Of a stretch of DNA of 64,000 nucleotides, positions 59,301 to 64,000 are shown piece by piece. The notes below the pieces were generated by a model, which ran no database searches, had not been told where the DNA came from, and saw nothing but the letters and a program-made list of their open reading frames with translations. Location of the stretch: the NCBI GenBank assembly GCA_036785375.1, contig JAWMAR010000341.1, positions 620,001 through 684,000 on the forward strand, in the 5' to 3' direction. The translations under genes were made by a program, and so were the position numbers. The stretch is from Leucoraja ocellata (Eukaryota). Positions within the stretch are counted from its first letter, which is position 1. Every line of letters starts with the position of its first letter.

Positions 59301-62300
59301 ATGGGTATCAGATAAACCTGCAGGGGTAGGAGATTGCAACCTTCACGTGGTCCACCCCGTTTCGACTAATGCAATCAACCCGACGTGCACAAACAAAAGA
59401 TCAAGTCAAGAGAGTTTATTGTCACGTGTCCCAGATAGAACAATAAAATTCTTGCTTGCTGCAGCACAAAAGAGTATTGTAAGCATAAATACAGATCAGT
59501 TAAATGTGTCTATATAGCATAGACCATATATATACACACACACACACATAGATAAACAGATAAAATGGAATAGGCTGTTATAGTTCATCGTTTGTTTGAT
59601 GGCAAGTTTAATAGCCTGATGGTTGTGGGGAAGAAGCTGTTCCTGAACCTGGATGTACCAGATTTCAGGCCGAATAGAATAGACCAAGTTGACCTACAAC
59701 TTTAGGCTGTGCACGCCAAACGCAAGAAGAAGAAGAAGAAGATAAACCTGCGGTGGGCTCAGTTACAATGTCCCACATTGGTCAATACATCATTTGGTTG
59801 TCAAGATTCATAATCAATGAGGCGAGGAAAGATCAGATTTTTAGGGAAGGGGCAAAACAAAGAAGCAGATTAAAACATTCTAAAACAATCCTAAAGAAAT
59901 CTAATAGATGCATCAACTGAAAAGCTGTCATTAGCTACTAAGAATAATAAACAGGCTCCCTGTTATGAAGTGACAATGAACATACCTAGAGGATGGTCTG
60001 TCAGAAGATTGACTTGTTCTGGAGCTGGGTCGACTGGTCCTTTCCCTCTCTTGGTCCTTGGAACCTGCATTATTAGCATCGTACCTGGCATACTGGGCGT
60101 TGTAACGCCGGTATGGATCACCCTGAAGAACAAGCACAATTTAAAACTTGGGTTCTGGCAACAGATCAAAGCTAACAAAATAAAACAAGTTTCAATTGGT
60201 TGATTCCCGACAAAACCTTCGACCAACATCAACAAAACATATAATGACAGCATCTCGAGTGCTCTGGCAGAACTTGCTTTGTGCAATTTACTGACCTGCT
60301 TCATCATAGCATGCCCATATTTTAAGTCCCGCCGTACAGGTGCCTAAAGGCACAATGGGCAGCATGTAAATCAAGTTCCCTCTATTAGCCCCGTTCATCT
60401 CAATCTCGATCCTCTATTCTATAGGCCTCAGAAATCAACACGGTGAGCATTTCTGACTATGCTTTGATCGATGAGTGGTCGTAGCTTCTCCAGCTCTTCT
60501 AACTGCCCAGCCTTGAAGCAGCTTCTTGAATCTCCCAAAAGCTCCCTCAATTCTCATTTGCGATGCTCCAGTTTCATGAAGCTTTTTCAACACCTCTTCA
60601 TAAGTACCAGTGCCAAATTTAATATGATCCCCAGTGCTCCGCGAAGCTTGTGCTGGGTGCAGCAGAAGAGTGGATGGAGTCAGAGGATAAGAGGCTACAG
60701 GGGTGAATAAAATAAAACATAAACATGCCCCCAACCTAGCCACCACCTCCCTTGATTATGAGCAATTTATATAACTGCCGAATAAAGTGATAACGATAAC
60801 GGTAAAAAAAAAAAGGCAAGCGTTCAGTTACCTGATAATATGGATGGTTGCCTCTGGAACTCATTGGTGGATAAGGCAACTGTTGACCAACTCTGGGATC
60901 CACAGGTGGGTAGGATGGGTAAGGCACTGCATATGCCTGCTGAGGATCCGTGCCGTAATCCTGATACAGGTACGGATATGGATAGCTGTAGCCCACCTGC
61001 GGCAGCCCCTGAGGATACGGCTGCTGCAGTGGCACCTCCTGATGCGAGGGCAGCTGGGAGGCTGCTGCTGCTGCTGCTGTTGTTACAGGAACCTGAGCCA
61101 CTGATTGCTGCTGTGTGGCAGGCTGGGCAGAAGCCAACTCTGGGTACCCATAGCCCACAGGTGCGCCATGACTGCTGGCCAGCACCGAGCCTGGCTGATG
61201 CTGGTCAGAGTCATGAGCCGTGGGTGGGAGGGGCGGGGGTACTGCCTGTTGCCCCGTCATTGTGGCCATCGGCTGCTGCTGCTGTTGGACATCTTTGGTG
61301 ACCTGCAGATAGAAACCTGGTTTGTCATTAATGCTGAGCCCTGCCACGTACGTCTGGCAAGGAGGAAGGTGCTGTGTGGTATTATTAAGTGGCAGGGAAG
61401 CAGGTTGATTAGCATTGGCGATGGACTGATTCGGTGGAGAGCGACGCAAGGTGAAATCAAGCAGCTCACAGTTGGCAGATGACTCAGGCTGATGAAAACC
61501 TGGATTTCTTACATCGTCTTTACTGATGTCACTGCGTGGCTGAAGAGCGGAGGTCGGGGCAATTATGGTTGCGCCAGGTACTCGGTTAGAGGGGGGGCTG
61601 GCAGCAGGGGTGCTCGTGTCCCTTGTTGGTGGTCCTCCACCTGCAAACCTCAGGTCGAGGTGACCGTCTGCAGCCAGATTGAGTGGTGTCTGGGCAGGTG
61701 GCGATCCGAGCGCAGTGGCAAGGCCAGCAGCTGGCGGTGCAGGGCTCGCAAAGGAAACGCTTTGGCCGTCGCCTCGATCTCGCAGAGGCTGGTCGGGGCT
61801 GGACTTTGGAGCAGAGGAACTGGTCTGCAGAGGCCGAGCGAGTAGCACAGGTGGGTTTGGCGCAGCCAGAGATGGCATCAGCAGTGTGGCGTAGCTGGAA
61901 CTTGCCTGGCCTTTGAGGGCTACACCTTTAGGTGCTTGGGGAGGATTCTCCATGTTGCCCACGAGCACTGGGTAGCTCGCTTCCTTGCTGCCATCTTGCG
62001 GAGGTGGGCCAACCTCAGCACAGGGTTCCTTGGCTGCTGTGGGCACAGCTGGAGCAGCTAGCGCCAGCACAATCCCGGCAGTGAAGTTCGGCAGCTCGTT
62101 CTGTGCCCACAGGGTGGCAGCTGGGCTCTCCGCTTTTGCACGGGCGCCGTGCATTCTCAAAGGTGTTCTCTTCTCTGACATCTCTGGCATGGGTGGCAAC
62201 ATACTTTCAGGAGCCGCTGGGCCTGCATACAGGTTTGAGCGAGTGTGCGGGATTGTGATGTTTTCCAAGTTGTCGGGTGGTTGTTCTAGGTTGCCTGGGG

Positions 62301-64000
62301 AGATATCTGATGCAGCTTGCTGCTGCCCCACAGTGCTGACTGCGGCCTGGCCCAGCTCCATCACCAGGCTTGCTTGATCCACTTCCGCACCCTTGACTGC
62401 GAACTGCCCGTGTGGCCTCACGGGCTCAAACGAGCTGTTGGCGCTGGCTTGGAAGGTGGCCATCGGCTTTGGAGATGTGGGATTGGTGGGATGCGGCAAC
62501 TGGCTGTAATACATAGTCCGCCCAGCGCTCTCCACCTCCCTGCCCGGATAGGAGGGGTCCTGACCGAGCGGGGAAGTGTCTATCTGCTCAAAGAAGCAGG
62601 AGACAGCATCGGTCGGTGGCTTCCCGCTCTCCTGCTGGATGAAAGTGTTCGGCGGAAGTTGGGAGCGCCGCAGACTTGAGCCGCTGCTGTGACTGGTGCT
62701 GCTGTGGTTCGAGGAGATGCTGTCCGATCGCAGAGGGTGAGGTGTCACGTCCGGGGTCTCCTGATTCACAGGTGGTCCGCCTGCTGTTCCAATGTTTTTG
62801 GTGACATGCTGTCCCTGGTTTGCCAAGCCAGGCATGGGCTGGAATCCCAGAGAGATCCTTTCAGGTTCACTGGGCAACACTTCTTGGTTCGGTGCAAATT
62901 CAGAATTCTCGTCATTTTCCAGTGTCAGCCCATCCCCGCCACGCTGAGGCATAGTGGGATCCTTGATCTCAGCAGGGCCTCCAGAACCCTGGATGTAAAC
63001 ACCGTACGGGGCAGGTGGTGGGGGAAGGAAGCCCTGGGCTTCAACACCAGAGGCCCGACCCACTGCCTGTAGCCCTGACTCAGGAGGGGGCAATCCACTG
63101 AAGAACAGACCTTGACTTGGCTGAAAGGCATCTCCAGTCGCAACATCGGCTCCACACTGAAAGTTTCTTGCCAGGGTTTCTTTATTCTCTGCCTCGCCCC
63201 CTTTGAAAAACATAGAAACAGTACCTGGGTCAGAGTCTGGAGGGTGGCCTGACTGTGGGGGGAGACTGTCGGGTCTGGTAGATTGTTGAGGACATGGTTC
63301 TCGTGGGAAACTGTGTGCCCAGTCCTCTGGGTGGGCCAAGCCAGCGCCTGAGAAATTTTGTTGGTGCTGGGATGGGTGGAAGGGAGGTGGCCGACCACTG
63401 TCCTTGCGCTCTCCTCCAGCAAACTGGGCAAAAGACTCTGGCGGTGGATGCTGCTGCTGGCAGAAGCTGCCAGGTGCCGGGTTTTGGTGAGCTGGAAAAG
63501 GTGGCAGCTGGGCTGGAGAGTAGTAACTGCCGAAGCCCTGAGTCTGGGGGTCACTGGGTTGAAAGTAGTTTTGGACGGAGGGAGGCCGACTGCCGTGACT
63601 CGCCACCCACTGGGAGGAGGTGCTTGGCTGGAGCTGTGGTGGGAAAGCCGGTGCGCCAGGAGGAAAAGGAAGCGGTTCTTGCCCGTGGGAGTTCCTTGCT
63701 TGGGAAGGGGCGGCGCCGTGACGTGGCCCAAACTCGCCGCCTTCTGGCCCTAGCCCCGTGTGAAAGTACGAGGGCTCGGGGGGTAGGCCCTGCCCGGCGT
63801 CAGGAGGGGACGCGGGGAAGAACTGGCCATCACCAAAGCGTGGCATCGGGGCAAGAGGCGCCGCCGGTGCACCACATGGTTCTGACCGCTCGCCCGGTGC
63901 GGTGGGCTGCCCGGGAAATGACCCCTGTGGGTTGTGCAAAGTGTCTGCGGGCCACCGAGGTGGAGCGTGGCTCCCGTCTTGCTGACTCAACAAAGGTGGA
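29276..64000 (-). CDS. SEC16A: Protein transport protein Sec16A (ER exit-site scaffold), 29 exons in window, 5' end beyond window edge
   Basis: Long Pro/Gln-rich exon with GNLEQPPDN and [14 protein letters not shown]; Arg/Tyr-rich ERES-localisation region; central conserved domain ([40 protein letters not shown]); C-terminal [11 protein letters not shown] and RYVDVLNP; phases consistent. Confidence 0.96.
29598..29803. mobile_element. Tc1/mariner MITE (two ~95-bp TIRs, almost no spacer)
   Basis: TA|CAGTGGCTTGCAA...TTGCAAGCCACTG|TA. Confidence 0.88.
30678..30749 (-). CDS. SEC16A: SEC16A exon ([24 protein letters not shown])
   Basis: cag|..|gtaag; 72 bp. Confidence 0.92.
30860..31260 (+). mobile_element. 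CR1-clade LINE 3' fragment
   Basis: [13 protein letters not shown]-type coding plus tail gaagggccgaatggcctcctcctgcaccta. Confidence 0.8.
32000..32370 (-). mobile_element. CR1-clade LINE 3' fragment
   Basis: KTRGHRL..RG..FKR.....[12 protein letters not shown]. Confidence 0.8.
33074..33162 (-). CDS. SEC16A: SEC16A exon ([12 protein letters not shown]...ANLQAQ)
   Basis: cag|..|gtact; 89 bp. Confidence 0.85.
33811..33945 (-). CDS. SEC16A: SEC16A exon ([11 protein letters not shown]...[20 protein letters not shown])
   Basis: tag|..|gtatg; 135 bp. Confidence 0.94.
35391..35502 (-). CDS. SEC16A: SEC16A exon (SKPLPPPPS...VNRFSRKA)
   Basis: cag|..|gtgag; 112 bp. Confidence 0.92.
35938..36146. mobile_element. 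PIF/Harbinger-type MITE
   Basis: TIR ATGGCCTGTCCCACTTGGCC / GGCCAAGTGGGACAGGCCGT; TAA TSD; CpG-rich interior. Confidence 0.8.
36343..36623. repeat. Palindromic Penelope-tail element with unrelated spacer
   Basis: ~95-bp inverted arms (gaaggaaagaactgcag...agagaaggaatgg). Confidence 0.75.
36760..36816 (-). CDS. SEC16A: SEC16A exon ([19 protein letters not shown])
   Basis: tag|..|gtaag; 57 bp. Confidence 0.94.
37777..37848 (-). CDS. SEC16A: SEC16A exon ([24 protein letters not shown])
   Basis: cag|..|gtgag; 72 bp. Confidence 0.93.
39460..39639 (-). CDS. SEC16A: SEC16A exon ([16 protein letters not shown]...VGKKGK)
   Basis: cag|..|gtaaa; 180 bp. Confidence 0.9.
41024..41071 (-). CDS. SEC16A: SEC16A 48-nt microexon ([16 protein letters not shown]), probably cassette
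   Basis: aagcag|GCC...ATG|gtacg; symmetric phase 0; motif resembles start of next exon. Confidence 0.75.
42201..42301 (-). CDS. SEC16A: SEC16A exon ([33 protein letters not shown])
   Basis: cag|..|gtaag; 101 bp. Confidence 0.88.
42750..43010 (+). mobile_element. HE1/V-SINE-like SINE (diverged)
   Basis: gtggagtttgtatgttctccctgtgacc...gggccgatgggcccgtttccatgctgt. Confidence 0.65.
43295..43543 (-). CDS. SEC16A: SEC16A exon (PHAVLDGRL...VQEQVHVNA)
   Basis: tag|..|gttag; 249 bp, phase 1-1. Confidence 0.85.
44420..44630 (-). CDS. SEC16A: SEC16A exon ([24 protein letters not shown]...GVQLMPA)
   Basis: cag|..|gtatc; 211 bp. Confidence 0.9.
44733..44846 (-). CDS. SEC16A: SEC16A exon ([14 protein letters not shown]...QIK)
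   Basis: aag|..|gtgag; 114 bp. Confidence 0.92.
45538..45678 (-). CDS. SEC16A: SEC16A exon ([24 protein letters not shown]...QLIQ)
   Basis: tag|..|gtagg; 141 bp. Confidence 0.95.
45826..45931 (-). CDS. SEC16A: SEC16A exon ([25 protein letters not shown]...PNFQ)
   Basis: cag|..|gtatg; 106 bp. Confidence 0.95.
47129..47240 (-). CDS. SEC16A: SEC16A exon ([36 protein letters not shown])
   Basis: tag|..|gtgag; 112 bp. Confidence 0.95.
47355..47555. repeat. Older palindromic Penelope-tail element with two back-to-back hammerhead remnants
   Basis: ttcttcagaa|tctgaagac centre; diverged arms. Confidence 0.6.
47969..48086 (-). CDS. SEC16A: SEC16A exon ([21 protein letters not shown]...TMGDTL)
   Basis: cag|..|gtatg; 118 bp. 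Confidence 0.95.
48335..48525 (+). mobile_element. HE1/V-SINE-like SINE, 5'-truncated
   Basis: ccggtttcctcccacacctcaaagatgt...gggcctgtttcc. Confidence 0.7.
48618..48699 (-). CDS. SEC16A: SEC16A exon ([27 protein letters not shown])
   Basis: tag|..|gtgag; 82 bp. Confidence 0.95.
49357..49454 (-). CDS. SEC16A: SEC16A exon ([32 protein letters not shown])
   Basis: cag|..|gtagg; 98 bp. Confidence 0.95.
49583..49822 (-). CDS. SEC16A: SEC16A exon ([12 protein letters not shown]...[13 protein letters not shown])
   Basis: cag|..|gtaat; 240 bp. Confidence 0.95.
50455..50593 (-). CDS. SEC16A: SEC16A exon ([15 protein letters not shown]...[14 protein letters not shown])
   Basis: cag|..|gtgag; 139 bp. 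Confidence 0.94.
50749..50936. repeat. Palindromic Penelope-tail hairpin
   Basis: Near-perfect ~70-bp arms; TSD-like AACATTG(T/C)GTA at 50738-50748 and 50937-50947. Confidence 0.8.
52121..52182 (-). CDS. SEC16A: SEC16A exon ([20 protein letters not shown])
   Basis: cag|..|gtaag; 62 bp. Confidence 0.92.
52510..52652 (-). CDS. SEC16A: SEC16A exon ([14 protein letters not shown]...[15 protein letters not shown])
   Basis: cag|..|gtaca; 143 bp. Confidence 0.93.
52954..53128 (-). CDS. SEC16A: SEC16A exon ([10 protein letters not shown]...TGWQPVET)
   Basis: tag|..|gtatg; 175 bp. Confidence 0.9.
53600..53910 (+). mobile_element. HE1/V-SINE-like SINE
   Basis: gagacccggttcgatcctgac...gggccaaagggcctg. 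Confidence 0.72.
54023..54215 (-). CDS. SEC16A: SEC16A exon ([15 protein letters not shown]...[12 protein letters not shown]...[11 protein letters not shown])
   Basis: tag|..|gtgag; 193 bp. Confidence 0.92.
54597..55075. mobile_element. PIF/Harbinger-type MITE
   Basis: ~50-bp TIR starting AGGGGCTGTCCCACTGCGG; TAA TSD; internal CTTCGACTA subrepeats. Confidence 0.82.
55856..55994 (-). CDS. SEC16A: SEC16A exon ([29 protein letters not shown]...PYGD)
   Basis: cag|..|gtgaa; 139 bp; phase fits. Confidence 0.9.
57055..57151 (-). mobile_element. 97-bp Penelope pLTR-derived insertion with hammerhead core
   Basis: 11-bp TSD CTATAATCACT (57044-57054, 57152-57162). Confidence 0.75.
57834..57931 (-). 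CDS. SEC16A: SEC16A exon ([32 protein letters not shown])
   Basis: cag|..|gtaag; 98 bp. Confidence 0.9.
58285..58880 (-). mobile_element. Degenerate Rex1-type reverse transcriptase fragment
   Basis: Minus-strand remnants resembling GAPQGCVL, DPLQFA and VMKCFE motifs. Confidence 0.6.
59323..59376 (+). ncRNA. Minimal HDV/CPEB3-like self-cleaving ribozyme motif
   Basis: P1 GGGGTAG/CCACCCC (one A-C mismatch), P2 GATTGCA/TGCAATC, P3 ACC/GGT, L3 TTCACGT, GT, stub P4, J4/2 CTAA, all in HDV nested double-pseudoknot order. Confidence 0.8.
59404..59671 (-). mobile_element. Rex1/L2-type LINE 3' fragment nested in the ribozyme retroposon
   Basis: Minus strand reads ...[16 protein letters not shown]-like end and tail gtgacaataaac; similar tail at 13330-13610. 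Confidence 0.55.
59986..60122 (-). CDS. SEC16A: SEC16A exon ([11 protein letters not shown]...[15 protein letters not shown])
   Basis: cag|..|gtatg; 137 bp. Confidence 0.92.
60832..64000 (-). CDS. SEC16A: SEC16A large N-terminal exon (truncated by window edge)
   Basis: >1050 open codons to the edge; donor TATCAG|gtaac at 60832. Confidence 0.95.

What the first reader, a model, noticed from the sequence alone, without database searches (positions are those of the whole stretch)
59323..59376. Minimal HDV/CPEB3-type ribozyme at the exact 5' end of a short retroposon
Seen in sequence: 54 nt parse without gaps as an HDV-like fold. P1 GGGGUAG(59323-29)/CCACCCC(59352-58, one A-C mismatch); J1/2 GA; P2 GAUUGCA(59332-38)/UGCAAUC(59370-76); P3 ACC/GGU; L3 UUCACGU; GU after P1; a 5-nt P4 stub; J4/2 CUAA with the putative catalytic C at 59366. 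Established: HDV-like ribozymes cleave 5' of P1 G1 and process the 5' ends of R2 and L1Tc/Ingi retrotransposons. From memory, the mammalian CPEB3 ribozyme has the same L3 (UUCACGU) and a single-pair P1.1 (GU); this needs checking. G1 sits 1 nt after the left TSD, as expected if self-cleavage defined the RNA 5' end. Inference: a ribozyme-headed SINE family in an elasmobranch, possibly undescribed and possibly related to the origin of the CPEB3 ribozyme. It is antisense to SEC16A, so it would not cut that pre-mRNA.
Basis: partly seen in the sequence, partly recalled or inferred. Interest (0 to 1): 0.92.

Follow-up and report, generated by a model that had tools for sequence, protein, structure and literature searches.

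The report
Ribozyme-headed Vingi retroposon, CPEB3 ribozyme relative
The flagged 54 bases are the probable self-cutting RNA head of a very common short jumping gene, and sister jumping genes in the same genome carry heads nearly identical to the mammalian CPEB3 'memory' ribozyme, which suggests that ribozyme is a tamed piece of such an element.

Summary
The 54-nt HDV-like parse is real. It heads a ~135-nt non-autonomous retroposon (14,384 core matches) made of the two ends of a single-ORF APE-RT LINE without RNase H, i.e. Vingi-like. Most copies repair the window's P1 mismatch and have the G1·U wobble; the left target duplication abuts G1 in 24 of 33. It lacks P4 and does not hit Rfam. But Rfam's CPEB3 model hits this genome over its cut-off at 56 of 59 scored places. 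The 13 I read fall in three further head families; two are tied to Vingi-like coding sequence, the third weakly. One copy matches the CPEB3 consensus at 43 of its first 46 positions. Across five families 12 of 18 pairs change on both sides. A covarying 5'-3' UTR helix also appears. Cleavage is untested, and no mammalian locus was examined. Ten literature searches found no Vingi ribozyme and no CPEB3-Vingi link, but three key papers were unavailable. The scan holds no look-alike, only a fungal LINE of the same kind.

The parts
59310..59321 (+). left target-site duplication (12 nt)
   Evidence: identical to 59740-59751
59323..59376 (+). HDV-like ribozyme fold without P4; predicted cut 5' of 59323; 5' end of the element
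   Evidence: parse; family column counts; cross-family pair counts
59342..59348 (+). L3 loop, same heptamer as in the Rfam CPEB3 consensus; C59344 pairs with G59359 (P1.1)
   Evidence: consensus line; pair kept in 13 of 15 rows
59361..59365 (+). 5-nt linker in place of P4
   Evidence: alignment A2: the other four families have a P4 hairpin here
59366..59369 (+). J4/2 with the putative catalytic C (59366), aligned with CPEB3 C57
   Evidence: C in 47 of 49 copies; second base U 35, G 10, A 4
59377..59403 (+). rest of the LINE-derived 5' part, with an octamer (59384-59391) complementary to the 3' UTR
   Evidence: shared with autonomous LINE 5' ends; pairing test
59404..59678 (-). nested ~275-nt insert of an unrelated repeat, read as a truncated LINE 3' end in opposite orientation (Rex1/Babar-like label is from recall); specific to this copy
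   Evidence: absent from other copies; reads and contigs skip 59403-59678
59679..59739 (+). 3' part: short junction, last codons and stop (59703-05) of the LINE ORF, 3' UTR with the complementary octamer (59708-59715), (AAG)n tail from 59724
   Evidence: matches the 3' ends of 19 of 30 LINE loci; ORF end
59740..59751 (+). right target-site duplication
59986..60122 (-). exon of the host gene (AG before, GT after), showing that the element lies antisense in an intron; gene name not confirmed
   Evidence: sequence

Best explanation
The 54 nt are the 5'-terminal HDV-like self-cleaving ribozyme of a Vingi-like LINE family (family A), carried here by its ~135-nt non-autonomous derivative. Mechanism: a source copy is transcribed by read-through from a host promoter (inferred); the nested double pseudoknot folds and the J4/2 cytosine with Mg2+ cuts 5' of G1, freeing an RNA that starts at the element's first base (inferred from the established HDV/CPEB3/L1Tc mechanism; not assayed); the 3' end is taken in trans by the LINE's APE-RT protein for target-primed reverse transcription, giving full-length copies whose left duplication abuts G1 (structure shown, steps inferred). 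A short helix between the bases behind the ribozyme and the 3' UTR may hold the two ends together, which would explain why the derivative keeps just these two ends (inferred). The head is a clade-level Vingi feature, and the mammalian CPEB3 ribozyme is a homologue of such heads. The window copy itself is most likely a dead passenger: P1 mismatch, nested insert, antisense to its host gene.
For: Family: 14,384 matches to a 22-nt core with at most 1 mismatch, reversed control 0. 5' end: left duplication abuts G1 in 24 of 33 copies with a duplication (38 tested; 19 of 27 after I merge look-alike pairs by eye); 16 of 19 loci picked by the tail alone have a clean head starting within 2 nt of G1. Partner: head and tail both shared with a ~3.1-kb LINE; its RT and APE group at 100/99 with ~1000-aa APE-RT proteins, 0 of 39 of which hit RNase H, while 3 of 4 outgroup ORFs scanned do. 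Structure: the three commonest variants within the family keep the fold (A32G 13, U36C 14, U45G 10 of 49); across five families 92.2% of 268 cells pair (shuffles 69.9%, slid registers 38-51%), 12 of 18 pairs change on both sides. Families A-D share the 7-2-7-3-7-3-7-GU spacing of CPEB3. A full-length family B element has a CPEB3-model head (64.2 bits) with its duplication abutting G1. A fifth family in metagenome contigs has the same L3, GU and C-U-A-A ahead of its APE ORF. Precedent: NARTc, RIME, SIDER and R2 SIDEs; minimal ribozymes lacking P4 exist.
Against: No cleavage data. In the one raw poly(A) RNA run (another organism; about 6% read; 1,557 reads laid) no place showed a pile-up of starts, reads lay in both directions, and 134 reads ran on upstream of 59323, i.e. 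uncut read-through or antisense copies. Family A misses all 4,227 Rfam models. Column conservation is inflated because copies were picked by likeness to the window; no compensatory change occurs among family A copies. The pair counts rest on five related families and on a structure read from them; the measure 'further pair types' was not above shuffles (259 of 500). A precise 5' end is also what an internal promoter gives. One intact clade member with 494 nt upstream (L143) shows no such head. No named Vingi reference could be compared.
Confidence: 0.83

Rival explanations
1. The head is an internal RNA polymerase II promoter (like Pr77 of L1Tc); in family A the ribozyme has decayed after losing P4 and the fold is a relic of an ancestor that cleaved.
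For: P4 is replaced by 5 nt; no RNA start pile-up and 134 reads run upstream of G1; Pr77 is both promoter and ribozyme and some trypanosomatid copies are inactive.
Against: Subfamily variants all keep P1 pairing or switch J4/2 to the CPEB3 form; P2 and P3 differ from sister families by two-sided changes; P4-less ribozymes are known; the base before G1 is T in 32 of 50 and G in 8 of 50, not the extra G I would expect from capped templates (expectation from recall).
Confidence: 0.13
2. The likeness of families B-D to CPEB3 is convergence on the HDV fold, or Vingi took its head from a CPEB3 intron, so CPEB3 did not come from a retroposon.
For: HDV-type cores can converge (R2 and HDV share 21 of 27 core positions); no mammalian flank, empty site or duplication was examined; the CPEB search scored only part of the candidates.
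Against: Identity covers helices that covary freely between families: L087 43 of the first 46 and 55 of 67 positions, L082 34 of the first 40 with 18 in a row (counted by eye); majority of five independent family D insertions 59 of 67, the differences being four loop positions, one compensatory P2 pair, one L3 and one J1/2 base (by eye). Heads sit on three divergent protein lineages at the exact 5' end; CPEB3 is described only in mammals. None of the 59 scored model hits is both on the strand of and within 2 Mb of any of the 7 CPEB ZZ-domain matches; the nearest is antisense, 286 kb away, and a family B copy.
Confidence: 0.12
3. The 54-nt parse is chance pairing in a repeat head.
For: Loose descriptor hits occur at 0.4 per 64 kb; nested-fold z near 0; no Rfam hit.
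Against: Same spacing, L3, GU and J4/2 as heads that pass the CPEB3 cut-off on related LINEs; two-sided changes in 12 of 18 pairs; start coincides with the predicted cut.
Confidence: 0.02

Closest known systems
L1Tc/ingi-clade HDV-like ribozyme (Pr77, L1TcRz) and its short derivatives NARTc, RIME, SIDER (PMC4035085, passages; PMC8256844, passages)
   Same: HDV-like fold in the first bases of an APE-type LINE of the Ingi/Vingi group, kept by short internally deleted derivatives
   Different: Trypanosomatid, 77 nt with P4; here an animal Vingi-like element, 54 nt without P4; activity shown there, untested here
Bipartite non-autonomous Vingi elements, e.g. Vingi-1_EE derivatives (PMC5786205, passages and section 23)
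   Same: Only the 5' and 3' ends of a Vingi LINE, no small-RNA head
   Different: [quoted passage not shown]
Mammalian CPEB3 ribozyme (Rfam RF00622; PMC8233481 first sixth of the text and word search; 10.1101/2022.09.22.508989 and PMC9901934, passages)
   Same: 7-2-7-3-7-3-7 spacing, L3 heptamer, G1·U wobble with a U/C variant at position 36, C22-G37 plus U-U P1.1, C-N-A-A; families B-D pass the model's cut-off
   Different: Single-copy intronic, sense, conserved element with P4; family A has other helix sequences, no P4 and no hit to the model
Minimal HDV-like and theta ribozymes (PMC10879173, passages)
   Same: P4 absent, about the same size
   Different: Nearly 99% are in phages by that paper's search; here a high-copy eukaryotic retroposon head
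R2 ribozyme and R2 SIDEs (PMC6765202, passages)
   Same: 5' processing from a co-transcript; non-autonomous deleted forms
   Different: R2 is an rDNA-specific RLE element with a much longer ribozyme region

Membership tests
HDV-like ribozymes | Nested double pseudoknot P1/P2/P3/P1.1 | tested here: met
   P1.1 is one C-G pair plus a possible U-U, as in CPEB3
HDV-like ribozymes | G1 in a G·U or G-C pair at the cut site; catalytic C followed by an A in J4/2 | tested here: met
   G1 43 of 49, position 36 U or C 48 of 49, C 47 of 49, A 49 of 49
HDV-like ribozymes | P4 helix (dispensable in minimal forms) | tested here: not met
   5-nt linker only; fits the minimal subclass
HDV-like ribozymes | Site-specific, Mg2+- and C-dependent self-cleavage | not testable with these tools
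   needs an in vitro assay; cannot show it
Rfam RF00622 CPEB3_ribozyme | Score over the 35-bit gathering cut-off, family A (the finding) | tested here: not met
   no hit at E up to 10 in the window stretch or in L003, L045
Rfam RF00622 CPEB3_ribozyme | Score over the cut-off, sister families B, C, D | tested here: met
   13 of 13 fetched places score 37.7-64.7 bits; 56 of 59 scored in the genome, 0 of 14 control genomes
Rfam RF00622 CPEB3_ribozyme | Location in intron 2 of CPEB3 | tested here: inconclusive
   no sense-strand hit near a CPEB ZZ exon among the 59 scored of 181,149 first-look candidates
Vingi clade of non-LTR retrotransposons | Compact single ORF with APE then RT | tested here: met
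   ORF pieces run from just behind the head to the stop before the tail; intact homologues ~1000 aa; definition from PMC13708176
Vingi clade of non-LTR retrotransposons | No RNase H domain (unlike Ingi) | tested here: met
   0 of 39; outgroup ORFs L101, L170, L212 have it
Vingi clade of non-LTR retrotransposons | Groups with named Vingi families in an RT tree | not testable with these tools
   no named Vingi sequence available; the tree shows only one RNase H-less clade, 100/99, midpoint-rooted, long outgroup branches
Classical SINE (tRNA, 7SL, 5S head) | Small-RNA-derived head | tested here: not met
   the head is the LINE's own 5' end; no such Rfam hit
Bipartite non-autonomous LINE | 5' end plus 3' end of one LINE, tail, target duplication | tested here: met

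The most novel reading that the evidence does not exclude
Vingi retrotransposons start with a CPEB3-type self-cleaving ribozyme and pair their 5' and 3' UTRs; the mammalian CPEB3 ribozyme is the exapted 5' end of a Vingi copy that landed in sense in intron 2 of CPEB3 before marsupials and placentals split; and family A shows that the head can shrink to an active 54-nt P4-less form and spread to over ten thousand copies. None of this was found in the literature searched.
Probability: 0.6. Interest if true: 0.92.

Novelty: new variant of a known kind. Interest (0 to 1): 0.85.

Why it matters
It offers a concrete, testable source for the CPEB3 ribozyme, whose origin the papers read leave open (PMC8233481 has no occurrence of 'origin', 'transpos' or 'retro'; PMC7761336 only suggests domestication of small ribozymes in general). 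It would weaken the idea that the HDV ribozyme came from the CPEB3 gene (cited), since CPEB3-type ribozymes would be carried by many animal retroposons. It adds Vingi to the ribozyme-bearing LINE clades and bears on the question, left open in PMC5786205, of why only a few clades make bipartite derivatives. It supplies natural covariation for the CPEB3 fold and a eukaryotic P4-less example. Vingi-1_Acar is used as an RNA gene-insertion tool with its native UTRs; a self-cutting head and an end-to-end helix would matter for such designs. The human genome holds a Vingi fossil, X12_LINE, so the clade was active in our lineage.

Tried and rejected
Rfam scan of the window stretch and of family A and E loci: no ribozyme hit; of 13 metagenome loci: none. 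Second loose descriptor hit at window 62838-62960: rejected as chance; the model built from A2 finds only 59323-59376 in the window. RTE origin, first suspected from the (AAG)n tail (recall): rejected once the partner ORF was found. Nested-fold energies: uninformative. Viral contigs: no match to a CPEB3-type pattern or to the protein alignment. Metagenome scan with P0001: nothing. Prokaryote genome contigs: 45 loci, mostly fragments or distant elements; none of the 7 searched with the model had a head. Of 125 outside loci 17 had an N-terminal APE hit; heads or head remnants were seen only in family E. Downstream of three family D heads no coding match (0 of 120 proteins; L095-L097); L085 0 of 120, L084 1 of 120. 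5'-3' pairing in family D: not above shuffles. Sequencing-run search: no RNA holder listed. Host gene name: Pfam, PDB and Atlas gave nothing. Sequence search of papers with a 13-nt motif: 0. Kojima 2011, Ruminski 2011 and Webb and Luptak 2011 were not held; no supplements were read; Ruminski's lists of elements may already include a Vingi filed under Ingi.

Full report
1. The observation. The parse stands base for base, flanked by a 12-nt duplication at 59310-21 and 59740-51 with one extra base before G1. A loose HDV descriptor is not selective (2 hits in the window, 12 in 30 shuffles), but the compact form occurs only here and in 0 of 30 shuffles (the size limits were set after seeing the finding). 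Rfam gives no ribozyme hit on this stretch at E up to 10, and nested folding is unremarkable.

2. The element. The window lies in a 3.44-Gb genome. A 22-nt core of the head matches 14,384 places with at most one mismatch, the reversed control none; look-alike pairs of loci suggest that some places are assembled twice, so the true number may be lower. Other copies are 126-148 nt from G1 to the right duplication (32 copies; the window copy is 417). The window copy is longer because a ~275-nt piece of another repeat sits at about 59404-59678. Of 81 loci, 59 had a head; I dropped 3 that repeat a place, 6 truncated heads and 1 with a gap, leaving 49 (34 distinct). In these G6 is found 44 times, so the window's mismatch is mostly repaired as predicted; position 36 is U 34 and C 14 times; the putative catalytic C 47 times. 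The common variants (A32G 13, U36C 14, U45G 10) keep P1 paired or give the J4/2 of CPEB3. These copies were picked by likeness, so conservation is overstated. Of 38 copies with a tail, 33 had a duplication; it abuts G1 in 24 and lies 1-3 nt away in 9. Among 19 loci picked by the tail alone, 16 have a clean full head. Contigs of three runs from three organism labels run from the unique flanks into the element, so the insertion is shared with related organisms.

3. The partner. One head continued into a decayed APE-RT reading frame. Of 30 loci of this LINE, 9 matched the head and 19 the tail of the short element; the short element is LINE 5' end (~80 nt), a ~13-nt junction, and LINE 3' end with the stop codon and (AAG)n. 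Its homologues are ~1000-aa proteins with APE and RT; 0 of 39 scanned hit RNase H and 14 of 39 a zinc-finger model, while 3 of 4 outgroup ORFs carry RNase H. This fits the definition of Vingi in PMC13708176 (passages). The tree puts families A, B and the protein of family E in one clade of 23 rows at 100/99 (31 rows, one dropped by the tool, midpoint root, long outgroup branches). No named Vingi could be included, so the name rests on these features.

4. The CPEB3 link. Rfam's CPEB3 model was run on the whole genome: 56 of 59 scored places passed the 35-bit cut-off, best 64.7, with 0 of 14 control genomes over it (only 59 of 181,149 first-look candidates were scored). I read 13 places. Family B (4): L083 is followed by the APE start (86 of 120 proteins hit) and, with L224, forms a ~3.15-kb element with an (AAG)n tail and a duplication abutting G1; 48 first-look candidates, most 96-99% alike. 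Family C (2): link to an APE start is weak (1 of 120). Family D (7, five independent): L087 is a duplication-flanked bipartite element whose 3' part matches the clade's C-terminus (4 of 120 directly; 49 of 120 through L223); three other D heads are followed by unrelated sequence. Counted by eye on the printed alignments, L087 equals the Rfam consensus at 43 of the first 46 and 55 of 67 ribozyme positions, L082 at 34 of the first 40, and the majority of the five D insertions at 59 of 67, differing by four loop bases, one compensatory P2 pair, one L3 and one J1/2 base. A fifth family (E) in metagenome contigs has the same L3, GU and J4/2 ahead of its APE frame, with a 6-bp P1. Family A shares only 20-32 of 50 core columns with B-D: it is a diverged, P4-less sister, not the closest CPEB3 relative.

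5. Structure support. On 15 heads of five families, 92.2% of 268 cells pair against 69.9% in shuffles and 38-51% in slid registers; 12 of 18 pairs change on both sides (P1 3 of 7, P2 6 of 7, P3 3 of 3); P1.1 never varies except by decay. Cautions: five related families, a structure read from them, and one of five measures not above shuffles.

6. A second conserved feature. The bases just behind the ribozyme are complementary to the 3' UTR, with different sequences in each family: 8 bp in A (shuffle frequency 0.006), 9 bp in B (0.0002; ends 3 kb apart), 10 bp plus a second helix in E (1 and 5 of 3,000 for two 3' ends, 158 of 3,000 for a third by longest run), not significant in D (0.25-0.27); cross-family combinations reach 3-6 bp. 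I noticed the pairs by eye and chose the windows afterwards, so the frequencies are generous. In family A the two octamers are intact in 26 and 27 of 35 parsed copies (47 examined).

7. How it most likely works. Shown: fold, position, partner, duplications. Inferred from established HDV-family chemistry (C57 of CPEB3 and C75 of HDV as general acid, Mg2+ at the scissile phosphate) and from R2 and L1Tc: read-through transcripts are cut 5' of G1, and the freed RNA is copied by the LINE protein in trans. The RNA data do not show this: in one poly(A) run of a related organism the family is read in both directions as a passenger, with G at 59328 in 173 of 186 reads and U at 59358 in 297 of 324, no pile-up of starts, and 134 reads running upstream of G1. 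The window copy has a mismatch in P1, the helix most sensitive to change in CPEB3, and lies antisense to a minus-strand exon, so it is unlikely to cut its host pre-mRNA. One intact clade member (L143) has no detectable head, so the ribozyme may not be universal in the clade.

8. What is known. Ribozyme-headed LINEs and their deleted derivatives are known (L1Tc/NARTc, ingi/RIME, R2/SIDE), and bipartite Vingi derivatives are known, but PMC5786205 (section 23) lists six ribozyme-bearing clades without Vingi. Ten searches of the held library gave no paper joining Vingi to a ribozyme or CPEB3 to a named retroposon; 'Vingi' with 'ribozyme' gave 6 papers, of which I read passages of two and only the listing of four. 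I read passages, not whole texts, of 15 papers and no supplements; Kojima 2011, Ruminski 2011 and Webb and Luptak 2011 were not held, and Repbase, Dfam and patents could not be searched, so prior description cannot be excluded. The scan's own notes hold no look-alike and one finding of the same kind in a fungal LINE.

9. Verdict. Observation confirmed. It works like the 5'-processing ribozymes of L1Tc and R2 (0.83); it is a new, P4-less variant on a Vingi-like bipartite retroposon. Homology of the CPEB3 ribozyme to Vingi heads is strongly supported by sequence (my estimate 0.88); its origin by exaptation of a Vingi insertion is an inference (about 0.78) that awaits the mammalian locus.

Noticed in passing
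G000, 56 places listed (e.g. L082-L094): Three further retroposon head families pass the Rfam CPEB3 cut-off; automatic annotation would call them CPEB3 ribozymes.
   Followed up: yes
window 59384-59391 and 59708-59715; L083 with L224; L191 with L151: Complementarity between the segment behind the ribozyme and the 3' UTR, with different sequences in families A, B and E.
   Followed up: partly
family A 5' junctions: The base before G1 is T in 32 of 50 copies, and 7 of the 9 short spacers between duplication and G1 end in T; may reflect untemplated additions or microhomology at second-strand priming.
   Followed up: no
G000:C1:19261560-19279232 and 19408538-19431509: Two mirror-image runs of family A cores spaced about 2 kb apart: the element seems caught in a larger tandem repeat.
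   Followed up: no
L143:300-495: Intact clade member whose upstream region has no HDV-type head by model or descriptor; a G-rich hairpin-like stretch lies just before the start codon.
   Followed up: partly
L091 (G000:C211:1769974-1770052, minus): A truncated family B head lies 286 kb upstream of, and antisense to, a CPEB ZZ-domain exon on the same contig; probably coincidence.
   Followed up: partly
L082:1-75; L088 with G000:C128:414342-414419: 3' ends of the same families lie inverted just upstream of heads, as in 5'-inverted insertions.
   Followed up: no
L098-L142: Eukaryotic LINE reading frames occur in contigs of prokaryote genome bins, likely host or eukaryote contamination of those bins.
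   Followed up: no
window 62838-62960: A second loose HDV-like parse inside coding sequence; at chance level.
   Followed up: yes
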